Assembly: GCF_009695905.1 (NCBI RefSeq)
Contig: NZ_VUNA01000013.1
Span: 24,750 to 48,749 of the forward strand
DNA length: 24,000 nt
From: Mogibacterium kristiansenii
GTDB taxonomy: Bacteria; Bacillota; Clostridia; Peptostreptococcales; Anaerovoracaceae
Reading direction: 5' to 3'
Shown here: piece by piece, positions 2,195 to 17,780 of the stretch
How the letters are laid out: the number at the start of each line of letters is the position of its first letter
How positions within the stretch are numbered: position 1 is the first letter of the stretch
Program-made: the position numbers and the translations under genes
Notes under the pieces: model-generated
Database searches by the model: none
Seen by the model: the letters and a program-made list of their open reading frames with translations, nothing else
What the model was told of the DNA's origin: nothing

Positions 2195-3306
2195 TCCGTC
2201 TCTCCTTCCACATCGTATTCCAGCAGCATGTCGTTCAGCAGCACGGTAATCTTAGCCAGCCGCAGCTTTGCGCATTCCTGCGGAAGGCGGATGCCCGACC
2301 CTTCCACCGGTGTCTTGGCATCCTCGCCGCCAAAGATTTTCGGTGCGATGTACGCGTATACGTGATGAACGATATGTGCTTTTAGGACGGCTTCATTGAC
2401 CGTGCCTCCCCCTTCTATCAGGACGGAGTCGATCTTCTCTTCTCCCAGCCGCTGCATGAGCACGTTCAAATCCGGATGGCCGTTCTTCTCCGGAAGGGTC
2501 CAGACCTTGGCCCCGGCTTCTTCCAGCTTCTGAATTCGGTTTGTCCCTTCTTCCCGGTCCCGGGTGCTCTCATTGCACACGATCAGCAGCGGATACTCCT
2601 TCGCACTGCGAACCAGCCGGCTGCCCATTGGAATCCGCAGGTGGCTGTCCAGAATAATCCGCAGCGGCTGATGGGCTCCGTCGATTCGGCAGTTCAGCAT
2701 CGGGTCGTCCGCCAGCACCGTGCCGATGCCCGCCAGGATTCCCGCATATCGGCCGCGTAGCTGATGCACGTGATTCCGGGCCGCTTCCCCCGTAATCCAT
2801 TTGGAGGCGCCGGTTCGAGTCGCGATTTTTCCATCCAGCGTCATGGCAAATTTCAGAACGACGTACGGCGTCTTGGTGGTGATGTAGTGGAAAAACACCG
2901 GATTCAAGGCATCGCAGGCCTCTCGCATGTAGTCCTCCACCACGTTGATTCCGTGCTCCCGAAGAATCCGAGCCCCTTTGCCCGCCACCTTCGGATTCGG
3001 ATCTCGAGATCCGATAACCACCTTGGCGATTTTCTTTTCGATGATAATCTCCGTGCAAGGCGGCGTCTTTCCGTAATGGCAGCAAGGCTCCAGCGTCACG
3101 TACAGAGTTGCGCCCGCCGGATCTTCAGTGCAGGCCGCCAGCGCATTTCGCTCCGCGTGAAGTTCGCCGTATTTCCGATGATATCCCTCACCAATCACTC
3201 GACCGTTCTTCACCACCACTGCGCCTACCAACGGGTTGGGAGCCGTCCAGCCCACCCCTTGCTTCGCCAGTTCAATGGCTCGTTTCATGAATTGTTCTTC
3301 TGCCAT
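2179..3306 (-). CDS. ribD: bifunctional diaminohydroxyphosphoribosylaminopyrimidine deaminase / 5-amino-6-(5-phosphoribosylamino)uracil reductase
   Basis: Deaminase zinc motifs are present (HAERNAL, TLEPCCHYGKTPPC), followed by a reductase domain (KFAMTLDGKIATRTG). The ORF track starts at 3333. I prefer the ATG at 3306 (MAEEQFMKRAIELA) because AAGAGGGA sits 5 nt upstream of it. Confidence 0.92.
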   Translation of the reverse strand: MAEEQFMKRAIELAKQGVGWTAPNPLVGAVVVKNGRVIGEGYHRKYGELHAERNALAACTEDPAGATLYVTLEPCCHYGKTPPCTEIIIEKKIAKVVIGSRDPNPKVAGKGARILREHGINVVEDYMREACDALNPVFFHYITTKTPYVVLKFAMTLDGKIATRTGASKWITGEAARNHVHQLRGRYAGILAGIGTVLADDPMLNCRIDGAHQPLRIILDSHLRIPMGSRLVRSAKEYPLLIVCNESTRDREEGTNRIQKLEEAGAKVWTLPEKNGHPDLNVLMQRLGEEKIDSVLIEGGGTVNEAVLKAHIVHHVYAYIAPKIFGGEDAKTPVEGSGIRLPQECAKLRLAKITVLLNDMLLEYDVEGETECSPE

Positions 3307-6368: not shown

Positions 6369-6621
6369 CCGGGACGTGGTGCCTCACCGCTCGCAAACCC
6401 TTTGTTCTTCGTCGCCAAGCACCACGTCTCCCGAGCCAAAGGAGTCTTCAGCGCCCCGGGCGTGGTGCCTCACTCCCCGCTAGCCCTTGTTCCTTCGTCG
6501 ACAGGCACCACGCCGACAAGGCCAATGGGTCTTCCGCCGCACTGGGCGTGGTGCCTCACCGCCCGCTAGCCCTTATTCCTTCGTCGACAGGCACCACGCC
6601 GACAAGCACACCCGCCCTGCC
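6369..6621. repeat. three tandem 86-bp units, each a long GC-rich hairpin/inverted repeat
   Basis: CGTGGTGCCT starts at 6375, 6461 and 6547, an exact 86-bp period. Copies 2 and 3 are 60/63 identical over 6458-6520 versus 6544-6606. The arms are GGCGTGGTGCCT / AGGCACCACGCC around a conserved ~32-nt core. Copy 1 has GACGTGGTGC / GCACCACGTC, a compensatory pair of changes. Confidence 0.9.
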
Positions 6622-16835: not shown

Positions 16836-17110
16836 TTAAAACCTCCTAGATTCAATCATATAAGTCCTACGCTTATTGTAGCAAAACATGTTATATCATT
16901 CAATATAGCCGTCAATTGTTACTATACTAAACAAATTTATAACGTTATTCTAAAAGAAAAAGTTCTTCATTTTTTCTCGGAGATTGCCTTTTCGTATGCG
17001 AGTCCATTCAGTGTTCGCTTATATAGTAGCCTGGGTCAAAAAGTGTGATTCTAACTGCATTAGTTAAAATTTACGTGTGCAATCTTATATGTCTAGAAAT
17101 TTGAAGGCAC

Positions 17111-17349
17111 TTCACGCTTTTTGACAGAAAACGCGGATTCAGCGTGAACGTAATTCGCGGCTTTTGTAAGATTCTAATTTTGGAACGACAGATTTCCACT
17201 GGCGATTCACGCAAAAATAAGGATTCCCTCCCCAAAAGCGTGAACTTTTTTTAAAGGATGATTTGAACGGAGAAAATTACACGACAAAATCGTGTATAAC
17301 AAAAAAATATGTTCACGCTGATTTGCAAAAATTATAAAAACAGCGTGAA
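17111..17349. repeat. three copies of an 8-bp inverted repeat, TTCACGCT-N22/23-AGCGTGAA
   Basis: Unit 1: TTCACGCT 17111-17118 and AGCGTGAA 17141-17148. Unit 2: TTCACGCA 17206-17213 and AGCGTGAA 17237-17244. Unit 3: TTCACGCT 17312-17319 and AGCGTGAA 17342-17349. Spacers are 22, 23 and 22 nt with no mutual similarity. Unit starts are 95 and 106 bp apart. Confidence 0.85.
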
Positions 17350-17420
17350 GTCGCCCTGAAAATCTAGGCATATTTTATTATATCAGATTGATAAATTCTA
17401 ATTATCGATTGATGAGATTT

Positions 17421-17780
17421 TTACTGTTTTCCTCTATTCTCTACATCTTCATTTAATACATTTTCTGCGAATTTGACAGACTCTAAGATGTTGCTTTCCC
17501 TGCATTTTTCAGGGAACTTATCAGCAAGATTCTTATATGCTTGCAAAAGTTCTCGACTTCGGGTTCGCTCTGCCAGATTATCAATTATTTCACTAATCCA
17601 ACTAAGTTCTTCCGCAGTACATTCATTCTGAAGGAACGAGATTGTCGCATCAACATCTTCACTTAGCATCTCTATTTCTTCGTTCCAGCATTTTTCGATT
17701 CCAAATAACCATTCATCACAACATTCTGCTGCAATTCTGCTTCTCTCTCGAATAATTTCTTTGAATTTTCCTATCTTCAT
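17421..17780 (-). CDS. hypothetical small acidic protein, probably all-helical
   Basis: I prefer the start at 17780 (MKIGKFKEII) because GGTGGAGAAGG sits 4 nt upstream. The track's longer N-terminus is Arg-rich junk that overlaps a terminator hairpin. The gene is low in GC relative to its neighbours. No domain recognised. Confidence 0.6.
   Translation of the reverse strand: MKIGKFKEIIRERSRIAAECCDEWLFGIEKCWNEEIEMLSEDVDATISFLQNECTAEELSWISEIIDNLAERTRSRELLQAYKNLADKFPEKCRESNILESVKFAENVLNEDVENRGKQ

What the first reader, a model, noticed from the sequence alone, without database searches (positions are those of the whole stretch)
16836..17420. 585-bp AT-rich intergenic region upstream of fhs carrying three TTCACGCT-N22/23-AGCGTGAA inverted repeats
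Seen in sequence:
- The gap between fhs (start 16835) and the upstream gene (stop 17421) is unusually long and AT-rich (15/60 G+C at 17281-17340).
- It contains six copies of one 8-mer arranged as three inverted pairs: 17111-17118/17141-17148, 17206-17213/17237-17244 (7 of 8 positions pair, because the left arm reads TTCACGCA) and 17312-17319/17342-17349.
- Spacers are 22, 23 and 22 nt and share no similarity. Flanking bases do not extend the pairing. Unit starts are 95 and 106 bp apart.
- A further palindrome with the same CACG/CGTG core, TACACGA-caaaa-TCGTGTA, sits at 17278-17296.
- GATTCTAA recurs at 17047-17054 and 17170-17177 (AATTCTAA at 17394-17401).

Inference:
- Identical arms with free spacers argue for recognition of the 8-mer itself. 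That points to a DNA-binding protein contacting half-sites three helical turns apart, or recombinase/partition-type sites. It argues against three independent RNA stems, which would be expected to covary rather than stay identical.
- Alternatively the whole region could encode a large structured ncRNA.
- A plus-strand promoter-like TTGTTA-16-TATAAC (16916-16943) points into it. On the plus strand, unit 2 is followed by CTTTTTTT (17245-17252).
- I looked for ZTP (pfl) and THF riboswitch cores, which often precede fhs, and did not see them.
Basis: partly seen in the sequence, partly recalled or inferred. Interest (0 to 1): 0.6.

Follow-up and report, generated by a model that had tools for sequence, protein, structure and literature searches.

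The report
Dispersed repeat with phased heptamer pairs
The three inverted repeats upstream of fhs are not an fhs control region. They are one copy of an undescribed non-coding repeat element, scattered 9 to about 24 times per genome in a small clade of human-gut Mogibacterium-like bacteria, whose six invariant 7-base motifs sit on one face of the DNA helix and look like docking sites for an unknown DNA-binding protein.

Summary
In detail: the three TTCACGCT-N22/23-AGCGTGAA units lie exactly where stated.

**What it is**
- The array is not unique to fhs. It is the core of a 355-bp AT-rich element (window 17050-17403; the inserted segment reaches 470-510 bp at other sites).
- There are 9 copies in this 2.05-Mb genome and 12 to about 24 in three sister species. 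I collected 137 distinct copies at 35 sites.
- It was found nowhere else among 185,579 species genomes, and it has no Rfam, plasmid or phage match.
- Neighbouring genes are unrelated in function.
- One sister species lacks the element at fhs but keeps the 120 bp with the fhs promoter-like site.

**Evidence for a DNA-level protein-binding platform**
- The six heptamers TTCACGC/GCGTGAA are 99.8% invariant across the family.
- Within orthologous sites they changed 9 times in 4,281 chances, against 7.2% elsewhere in the element.
- There is no compensatory variation.
- Spacings are fixed (31 bp inside a unit) or differ by whole helical turns (-22, -10/-11, +10 bp).

**Unresolved**
- The binding protein is unknown.
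- No transposase or recombinase family I tested is shared by all four genomes.

The scan had not noted this element on other DNA.

The parts
16957..17049 (+). Left extension of the inserted segment. From about 16992 (TTCGTATGC...) it is homologous to the left extensions of other copies. The break in homology with the sister species that lacks the element is at 16955/16956.
17050..17403 (+). Conserved core of the repeat element, shown here in A-to-C orientation. It starts with TCTAAC and ends with TCTAATT.
   Evidence: conservation among 53-137 copies starts and stops at these positions
17050..17055 (+). Left TCTAAT-type motif (TCTAAC in this copy), the first of three direct copies.
   Evidence: 2.3% change within orthologous sites, against 12.2% in the rest
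17086..17098 (.). Left 13-mer of the bracketing inverted pair (consensus CATATGYCTAGAA; TATATGTCTAGAA in this copy). It lies a fixed 22 bp (start of ATGYCTAGA to start of heptamer) before unit A.
   Evidence: 22 bp in 113 of 113 copies
17111..17148 (.). Unit A: heptamers TTCACGC (17111-17117) and GCGTGAA (17142-17148), with starts 31 bp apart.
17173..17178 (+). Middle TCTAAT motif (consensus ATTCTAATTTTG).
17206..17244 (.). Unit B: heptamers at 17206-17212 and 17238-17244, with starts 32 bp apart in this copy. The eighth arm position varies freely (T/C/A) without compensation.
17278..17296 (+). Small palindrome TACACGA-caaaa-TCGTGTA. It is present only in the main subfamily and lost in the divergent subfamilies.
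17312..17349 (.). Unit C: heptamers at 17312-17318 and 17343-17349, with starts 31 bp apart.
17362..17374 (.). Right 13-mer of the bracketing inverted pair (TCTAGGCATAT core). It lies a fixed 20 bp after the start of the last heptamer.
   Evidence: 20 bp in 113 of 114 copies
17397..17403 (+). Right TCTAATT motif, the end of the conserved core. This copy lacks the right extension seen at other sites.
16875..16903 (-). Context, not part of the element: fhs promoter-like site TTGAAT-17-TGnTACAAT. It lies in the 120 bp that the sister species without the element also has.

Best explanation
The region holds one copy of a previously undescribed, non-coding, dispersed repeat element.

**What is shown**
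- The element has a 355-bp core. The whole inserted segment reaches 470-510 bp at other sites.
- It entered intergenic DNA at many places in the common ancestor of four closely related gut species. It lies typically just downstream of a gene's terminator, and copies are now being lost by deletion.
- At this locus it sits between a small ORF and fhs's own promoter. It is not an fhs-specific control region.
- It carries six invariant TTCACGC heptamers arranged as three inverted pairs with starts 31 bp apart.
- It also carries two inverted 13-mers (CATATGYCTAGAA) at fixed distances outside the outer pairs, and three TCTAAT motifs.
- All of these motifs keep the same rotational setting on the double helix.

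**What is inferred**
- The element works at the level of double-stranded DNA.
- A sequence-specific, multimeric DNA-binding protein occupies the heptamers cooperatively on one face of about 270 bp of AT-rich, bendable DNA, forming a wrapped or looped complex.
- The heptamers have stayed unchanged in resident orthologous copies since the species split, and no common transposase was found. I therefore think the protein is still encoded in these genomes and that the copies are kept by selection.
- The identity of the protein and the benefit to the cell are unknown.
For: **Family and distribution**
- There are 20 exact units in 9 arrays in this genome and none in the reversed-pattern control.
- The whole roughly 355-bp element aligns among copies.
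- The element is present in 4 of 4 species of the close clade, where fhs is 96-99% identical. It was found in none of the 5 other species of the genus, nor in 32 other relatives, apart from one 24-nt chance match in G032.
- Only three other MAGs among 185,579 species genomes hold the pattern.
- Among 119 other genera of the family there is a single chance hit.
- More than 120 human-gut metagenome contigs hold it.

**Not an fhs regulator**
- The neighbouring genes are an alpha/beta hydrolase, a DUF5692 protein, peptide deformylase, a methyltransferase-aminotransferase fusion, a YitT protein and a tRNA.
- G002 has a DUF4417 gene instead of the element but keeps the fhs-proximal 120 bp.

**Indel polymorphism**
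- Clean presence/absence differences of 473 and 513 bp lie next to terminators.
- Internal-deletion remnants exist at other sites.

**Selection on the motifs**
- The heptamers are 99.8-99.9% conserved across the family, against about 70% for the rest.
- Within orthologous sites the heptamers show 1 change in 1,160 chances, against 12.2% in the rest. With 137 copies the figures are 9 in 4,281 against 7.2%.
- Subfamilies only about 50% identical overall keep every motif and every spacing.

**DNA rather than RNA**
- There is no compensatory change. The eighth arm position of unit B is T, C or A opposite a constant A.
- The RNAalifold covariation terms are -0.17 and -0.09 kcal/mol on the two strands.
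- Spacing from 13-mer to heptamer is 22 bp in 113 of 113 copies and 20 bp in 113 of 114.
- Heptamer starts within a unit are 31 bp apart, 32 in some copies of unit B.
- Spacing between units departs from the mode only by -22 (5 sites), -10/-11 (4 sites) or +10 bp (1 site). The best-fitting period is 10.25-11 bp, with resultant 0.9.

**Motif is dedicated to the element**
- Outside the elements the heptamer occurs at background frequency and never as a 24/25-spaced pair.
Against: - No binding protein has been identified.
An RNA role is therefore argued against only indirectly.
- In tandem gene pairs the C end faces the upstream gene in 12 sites and the reverse in at most 2. That orientation bias could reflect a strand-specific (RNA or single-strand) function rather than an insertion preference.
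- The T/C variation at the eighth position of unit B would read as U-A or U-G on the minus strand, which is compatible with a hairpin on that strand.
- The length classes that differ by whole helical turns come from few independent events (about four classes), and sites within a subfamily share ancestry.
- The three sister genomes are MAGs of 89-96% completeness, so the absence of a transposase family from them is not proof.
Confidence: 0.6

Rival explanations
1. Purely selfish non-autonomous transposon (MITE-like). On this view the heptamers and 13-mers are binding sites of a transposase or recombinase encoded by an autonomous partner that is rare, lost or unassembled, and the copies have no function for the cell.
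For: - It is a multi-copy, non-coding family with presence/absence polymorphism next to terminators and between convergent genes.
- Inverted 13-mers bracket an array of repeated subterminal motifs, as in transposon ends that carry several transposase sites (established knowledge of Mu and Tn7 ends).
- Copy number differs between the sister species: 9, 12, 16 and about 24.
Against: - Resident orthologous copies keep the heptamers unchanged while the rest drifts at 7-12%. Selection for mobility alone would not do that to copies that stay in place.
- Paralogues are at most about 85% identical, so there has been no recent burst.
- No partner with the same 13-mer exists in this 99%-complete genome.
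- None of Y1_Tnp, IS110, RVT_1, rve, Resolvase or DDE_Tnp_1 is present in all four genomes.
- The inverted 13-mers lie 36-100 bp inside the inserted segment, not at its tips.
- A target duplication is seen at only one of the two clean sites.
Confidence: 0.2
2. RNA-level element. On this view the copies are transcribed, either as 3' extensions of the upstream gene or from their own promoter. The three hairpins closed by the long-range stem would then act as a structured RNA, for example an mRNA stabiliser like REP, a protein sponge or a small RNA.
For: - The element lies downstream of a gene's 3' end in a preferred orientation, often just after an intrinsic terminator (20 of 34 sites).
- The arms can pair, and the bracketing 13-mers can form a closing stem.
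- The small palindrome at 17278-17296 shows one compensatory change between copies.
Against: - There is essentially no covariation.
- The Y/R position of the bracketing pair is uncorrelated and gives C-A mismatches on either strand.
- The 22-24-nt loops are unstructured and not conserved between subfamilies.
- Length variation in steps of about 10.5 bp has no rationale in RNA.
- There is no Rfam match on either strand, even at E = 10.
- No promoter-like site is conserved across copies (at most 12 of 52 at any position).
Confidence: 0.13
3. REP/REPIN-type system: inverted short repeats mobilised and maintained by a REP-associated tyrosine transposase (RAYT).
For: - The short motifs are in inverted pairs, lie at the 3' ends of genes, and are conserved in place. 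These are all properties of REP/BIME and REPIN populations (established knowledge).
Against: - No Y1 transposase (PF01797) was found in this genome (99% complete), in G004 or in G008. The control genomes gave hits as expected.
- The arms are only 7-8 bp with a 24-bp non-pairing spacer.
- There are tens of heptamers per genome, not hundreds of REPs.
Confidence: 0.04
4. Operator array of a transcription factor that controls fhs, possibly as part of a one-carbon or purine regulon.
For: - The array lies upstream of fhs, and the repeated palindromic sites look like operators.
Against: - The same array sits beside functionally unrelated genes, mostly at their 3' ends.
- The fhs promoter-like site lies outside the element, in sequence that G002 keeps without the element.
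- The distant species of the genus share no upstream homology with this region.
Confidence: 0.02

Closest known systems
REP/BIME elements of enterobacteria, especially the IHF-binding RIB/RIP type
   Same: - Dispersed, non-coding intergenic mosaics.
- Built from short motifs in inverted orientation around a spacer of fixed length.
- Concentrated at the 3' ends of transcription units.
- Bound by DNA-binding proteins, with motifs conserved in place.
   Different: - No sequence similarity.
- The arms are 7 bp long and do not form a long hairpin.
- There are three pairs per element, in helical phase, plus bracketing 13-mers.
- Copy number is 9 to about 24 per genome rather than hundreds.
- No RAYT gene was found.
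BOX elements of Streptococcus pneumoniae (boxA-boxB-boxC modules)
   Same: - Modular intergenic repeat of a few hundred bp in a Gram-positive bacterium.
- The outer modules are complementary to each other and bracket internal repeated modules.
- Mobility is suspected, but no transposase is known.
   Different: - BOX is thought to act as a folded RNA, and its boxB number varies.
- Here the number of units is fixed at three, apart from mini derivatives. Pairing shows no covariation, and the spacing obeys the DNA helical repeat.
MITEs such as Neisseria Correia elements
   Same: - Small, non-coding, multi-copy elements that are insertion/deletion polymorphic.
- They carry inverted repeats and an internal protein-binding site.
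   Different: - The inverted 13-mers are not at the tips of the inserted segment.
- There is no consistent target duplication and no parent IS.
- The internal motifs are under purifying selection in resident copies.
Multi-site nucleoprotein assembly regions such as Tn3 res (three inverted-repeat dimer sites) or P1 parS (heptamer and hexamer boxes around a bend)
   Same: - Three inverted-repeat sites, or several heptamer boxes, whose relative helical phase matters.
- This is how I think the element works.
   Different: - Those are single-copy sites next to the gene of their protein on a plasmid or transposon.
- Here the array is dispersed over the chromosome with no linked gene.
- Resolvase genes are not shared by all four genomes.

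Membership tests
REP/REPIN-RAYT system | A cognate Y1 (RAYT) transposase gene in the same genome | tested here: not met
   PF01797 was not found in G000 (99% complete), G004 or G008. It was found in the control genomes.
REP/REPIN-RAYT system | Units that are imperfect palindromes or doublets able to form a long hairpin | tested here: not met
   Only 7-8 bp pair. The 24-bp spacer is not self-complementary and is not conserved between subfamilies.
MITE | Terminal inverted repeats at the very ends of the inserted segment | tested here: not met
   The inverted 13-mers lie 36-100 bp inside the segment that is present or absent between species.
MITE | Target-site duplication of fixed length | tested here: inconclusive
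   A run of 6-7 A is duplicated at one clean site and nothing is duplicated at the other.
MITE | Parent IS sharing the ends | tested here: not met
   The 13-mer does not occur outside the element copies in paired form in G000. No left and right ends were found kilobases apart in about 1 Mb of metagenome loci.
MITE | Short, non-coding, multi-copy, with presence/absence polymorphism | tested here: met
   There are 137 copies at 35 sites. No frame longer than 59 codons stays open in the window copy, and clean indels were seen.
Any Rfam RNA family, including the ZTP and THF riboswitches and large ornate RNAs | Match to a covariance model | tested here: not met
   Nothing scored above chance on either strand at E up to 10 in the window. 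In the eight other G000 loci only a tRNA beside one copy matched.
Structured RNA in general | Compensatory base changes that keep the helices | tested here: not met
   The covariation terms are -0.17 and -0.09 kcal/mol. The paired columns are invariant or vary on one side only.
Transcription-factor regulon (operators upstream of co-regulated genes) | Sites lie upstream of functionally related genes | tested here: not met
   Neighbouring genes are unrelated in function, and 24 of 27 genes on the C-end side present their 3' end to the element.
Phased protein-binding array on DNA (a way of working, not a named family) | Spacing between sites is constant or changes by whole helical turns | tested here: met
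   Fixed distances of 22, 31 and 20 bp. Departures between units are -22, -10/-11 and +10 bp only, and the best period is 10.25-11 bp.
Phased protein-binding array on DNA (a way of working, not a named family) | A protein that binds the motif | not testable with these tools
   This needs EMSA, pulldown or ChIP.

The most novel reading that the evidence does not exclude
The copies are domesticated assembly sites for a dedicated, still unidentified DNA-binding protein that wraps about 270 bp of DNA through six phased heptamers. On this reading the clade has a new chromosomal system of 9 to about 24 nucleoprotein landmarks placed after terminators, for example as insulators, transcription roadblocks or chromosome-organising sites. 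It would have been born from a mobile element and then kept by purifying selection.
Probability: 0.3. Interest if true: 0.75.

Novelty: new variant of a known kind. Interest (0 to 1): 0.55.

Why it matters
- It removes a false lead. The long AT-rich gap before fhs is not a riboswitch or an fhs operator.
- It defines a repeat family in a poorly studied gut lineage. That family breaks assemblies and marks variable intergenic slots.
- The family gives an unusually clean computational signature of function on double-stranded DNA. The motifs are frozen in resident copies while everything between them drifts, and the spacing is quantised by the helical repeat.
- That signature makes a concrete experiment possible: fishing for the binding protein with a 38-bp probe.
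- If the protein proves to be a host factor, this would be a clear case of a mobile element turned into a set of chromosomal protein-binding landmarks.

Tried and rejected
**RNA families and structure**
- Rfam at permissive thresholds on the window and on eight other copies gave nothing.
- RNAalifold on both strands gave no covariation.

**Coding and promoters**
- Conserved ORF: none.
- Conserved promoter inside the element: none.

**Inversion**
- Invertible-DNA idea: 885 flank matches were in the same orientation and 0 flipped. No spacer or inter-unit inversions were found among orthologues.

**Other readings of the heptamer**
- Chi-like or uptake-sequence idea: the heptamer is not over-represented outside the elements (250 occurrences outside the elements, 306 in all, against a mean of 258 for permuted 7-mers).

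**Search for a mobilising partner**
- Y1_Tnp, IS110, RVT_1, rve, Resolvase and DDE_Tnp_1: none is present in all four genomes.
- 13-mer search for a parent IS in G000: none.
- Ends separated by kilobases in metagenome loci: none.
- Similarity between the element's extensions and IS110 or RT loci: the hits proved to be a different 43-bp repeat and orthologous flanks.

**Other collections and literature**
- Plasmid and phage collections: no match.
- Literature searches found nothing relevant.

**Not available**

Full report
**1. Observation**

- There are three units of TTCACGCT (TTCACGCA in unit 2), a 22/23-nt spacer, then AGCGTGAA. They lie at 17111-17148, 17206-17244 and 17312-17349.
- The palindrome is at 17278-17296.
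- The GATTCTAA-type words are at 17047, 17170 and 17394.
- The exact paired pattern occurs twice in the window, against none in 100 shuffles.
- The 8-mer is not enriched elsewhere in the window.
- The region is AT-rich: 30-40% G+C, against 50-60% in the flanking genes.
- The repeat finder also shows a long-range inverted pair around the three units. In the family alignment it resolves into two 13-mers with consensus CATATGYCTAGAA, at 17086-17098 and 17362-17374.

**2. The array is a dispersed repeat, not a feature of fhs**

Copy number and alignment:
- A pattern search of the whole 2.05-Mb assembly finds 20 exact units, and none in the reversed-pattern control.
- Allowing one mismatch per arm, they form nine arrays of three units on eight contigs.
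- Aligning the nine loci shows that the whole element is homologous, not only the arms.
- With 53 and then 137 copies, conservation begins at a TCTAAT word (window 17050) and ends at a TCTAATT word (17403).

Order of features in the core: TCTAAT, about 30 bp, left 13-mer, unit A, TCTAATTTTG, unit B, unit C, right 13-mer, about 25 bp, TCTAATT.

Neighbouring genes in this genome are unrelated in function:
- an alpha/beta hydrolase
- a DUF5692 protein
- peptide deformylase
- a methyltransferase-aminotransferase fusion
- a YitT-family membrane protein
- a tRNA

**3. Distribution**
- A DNA search of 40 relatives finds the element only in three other species of the genus, with about 12-21 matches each.
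- Those three plus the window's genome are the four species whose fhs is 96-99% identical. The five other species of the genus (fhs about 80% identical) have none.
- A 22-base pattern scanned over one genome for each of 185,579 species hits only those three MAGs. They are labelled 'Mogibacterium sp. 18NH' and two 'uncultured Clostridia bacterium' MAGs from Hadza gut samples.
- In one genome from each of 119 other genera of the family, the bare heptamer pair occurs once, in a G+C-rich chance context. It occurs 26 times in this genome and 71 times in G008.
- More than 120 human-gut metagenome contigs carry the element.
- One predicted viral contig carries a copy after a truncated tail gene.
- There is no match in the plasmid or phage collections and none in Rfam.

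**4. The fhs locus**
- G004 and G008 have the orthologous copy. It is 86-87% identical, while the flanks are 91-98% identical.
- G002 has a 250-aa DUF4417 gene in its place. Its start overlaps the stop of the same 119-aa ORF that precedes the element in the window.
- Homology between G000 and G002 breaks at window 16955/16956 and resumes at 17415.
- The 120 bp next to fhs are shared. They include the promoter-like TTGAAT-17-TGnTACAAT at 16903-16875 on the fhs strand.
- The element is therefore an insertion, or a replacement, upstream of the fhs promoter.

**5. Mobility and context**

Indels:
- Flanks of the 45 copies from the sister genomes were compared with this genome.
- Two sites are clean presence/absence differences of 473 and 513 bp, next to an intrinsic terminator. 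One of these also adjoins a tRNA gene.
- The inserted segment is longer than the core. A left extension begins about TTCGTATGC (window 16992), and a right extension ends about GAAAAAGTGAAAAAC in many copies.
- Other 'empty' sites in this genome keep short remnants of both ends, so they are internal deletions. One lies between 7-bp direct repeats.
- A single-unit mini derivative exists at G000:C2:58657-58827.
- A target duplication (a run of A) is seen at one clean site and not at the other.

Age of the family:
- In the four genomes there are 29 sites, 14 shared by at least two species and 4 shared by all four. With the metagenome contigs the total is 35 sites.
- Paralogues are at most about 85% identical.
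- The family therefore spread before the four species split, and no recent burst is visible.

Orientation:
- The gene on the C-end side presents its 3' end to the element at 24 of 27 sites. On the A-end side the split is 13 to 12.
- Only tandem gene pairs are informative for orientation. Among them, 12 have the C end toward the upstream gene and at most 2 the reverse.
- A strong terminator points at the C end within 150 bp at 20 of 34 sites. On the other side the figure is 10 of 34.
- Divergent, promoter-only spacers are almost never used.

**6. Which parts matter**
- Family-wide, the 42 heptamer positions are 99.8-99.9% conserved. The 13-mers are 94% conserved, the TCTAAT words 96% and all other positions about 70%.
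- The stronger test compares orthologous copies, which have sat at the same site since the species or strains diverged.
- Among the four genomes, the heptamers show 1 change in 1,160 column-lineage chances. The rest of the element shows 925 in 7,598, or 12.2% (binomial p about 6e-64). The 13-mers change at 5.0% and the TCTAAT words at 2.3%.
- With 137 copies at 27 multi-copy sites, the heptamers show 9 changes in 4,281 chances, against 7.2% in the rest.
- The counts are parsimony counts on related sequences, so the p-values are only indicative. The contrast is 30- to 100-fold.
- Two divergent subfamilies are only about half identical to the window copy. One of them includes the copy at G000:C19. 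Both keep every motif and every distance, while all the intervening sequence has changed, including the unit spacers and the small palindrome.

**7. DNA or RNA?**

Covariation:
- The arms never covary because they never vary.
- Where the eighth position of unit B does vary (T 23, C 22, A 3 of 48), the partner stays A.
- The Y and R positions of the two 13-mers vary independently: C-G 18, U-G 11, C-A 4 and U-A 1 of 35.
- RNAalifold predicts only the arms and the bracketing stem, 34 pairs over 365 nt. The covariation term is -0.17 kcal/mol on one strand and -0.09 on the other.

Geometry:
- The left 13-mer to unit A distance is 22 bp in 113 of 113 copies.
- Unit C to the right 13-mer is 20 bp in 113 of 114 copies.
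- Heptamer starts within a unit are 31 bp apart, or 32 in a minority of B units.
- The distance from unit A to unit B is 94-96 bp, or 73 bp at 5 sites.
- The distance from unit B to unit C is 103-106 bp, or 94-95 bp at 4 sites, or 115 bp at 1 site.
- No site departs from the mode by any other amount above 3 bp.
- The A-to-C distance falls into classes at 177-179, 189-190, 198-201 and 210 bp. The best-fitting period is 10.25-11 bp, with resultant 0.9.
- In the window copy the six heptamer centres fall within 0.15 of a turn of one another.
- Quantisation by the helical repeat is expected if proteins bound at the sites must face the same side of double-stranded DNA. It has no rationale in an RNA.
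- The number of independent length-changing events is small (about four classes), so this is good but not overwhelming evidence.

Other checks:
- There is no conserved ORF and no conserved promoter.
- There is no inversion polymorphism.

**8. Who binds?**

The binding protein is unknown.
- The heptamer is not over-represented outside the elements, and no 24/25-spaced pair exists outside them. The sites are therefore dedicated to the element.
- A RAYT-type Y1 transposase is absent from this 99%-complete genome, from G004 and from G008.
- IS110-family genes are in G000 and G004 only.
- Reverse transcriptase is missing from G004.
- rve matches above the family cut-off are in G000 only, with weak sub-threshold hits in G008.
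- Resolvase is missing from G004.
- DDE_Tnp_1 is missing from G000, G002 and G004.
- No IS in this genome shares the 13-mer.
- The sister genomes are MAGs of 89-96% completeness, so these absences are not proof. Taken with the selection seen in resident copies, they favour a protein that is part of the stable gene set of the clade.

**9. Verdict**
- The pattern belongs to a dispersed repeat family rather than to fhs.
- The family resembles REP/BIME, BOX and MITE elements in lifestyle. It fails the defining tests of REP-RAYT and of classical MITEs, and its anatomy has no described counterpart that I could find: three phased inverted heptamer pairs inside a bracketing inverted pair.

Noticed in passing
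window 17413-17780; L071:311-1391 (G002); L070 (G004): The slot between the PBP gene and fhs is variable. G002 has the 119-aa acidic ORF plus an overlapping DUF4417 gene. G000 has the 119-aa ORF plus the repeat element. G004 lacks window 17413-17703, which is most of the 119-aa ORF. The 119-aa ORF has no Pfam match.
   Followed up: partly
G000:C2:58657-58827; C41:10768-10819; C1:74382-74397; C6:40083-40118; C19:112-418: Degraded or derived copies of the element in the window's genome. One is a single-unit mini version. Two are internal deletions that keep both ends. One is a solitary unit. One belongs to a divergent subfamily.
   Followed up: partly
G000:C1:158993-159027: A perfect everted repeat, GCGTGAAC-N19-GTTCACGC, lies outside any element. 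It is the only other paired occurrence of the heptamer in the genome and may be chance.
   Followed up: no
G000:C8:44550-44969; C7:49671-50102; C9:39300-40250: Flanks of several element copies in the sister genomes match tandem arrays with 86-87-bp spacing in this genome. This looks like the other repeat family that the scan noted at 6369-6621 of this window, so the two repeat families often share intergenic slots.
   Followed up: no
G000:C15:3075-4634 (L133); G004:C9 (L135): A 1,560-bp IS110-family insertion sequence is 97% identical between two species. In G000 it abuts a 43-bp repeat (C15:2888-2930, 3038-3080; also C8:9155-9197), which could be its target.
   Followed up: partly
L262/L263 (IMGVR_UViG_3300029885_000339): A siphovirus-like prophage fragment carries head, scaffold, major capsid, tail and chaperone genes. 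Its tail protein gene is cut to 113 aa and is followed by a copy of the repeat element.
   Followed up: partly
window 16875-16903 (- strand): A likely fhs promoter, TTGAAT-17-TGnTACAAT with an extended -10. It is conserved in the sister species that lacks the element.
   Followed up: partly
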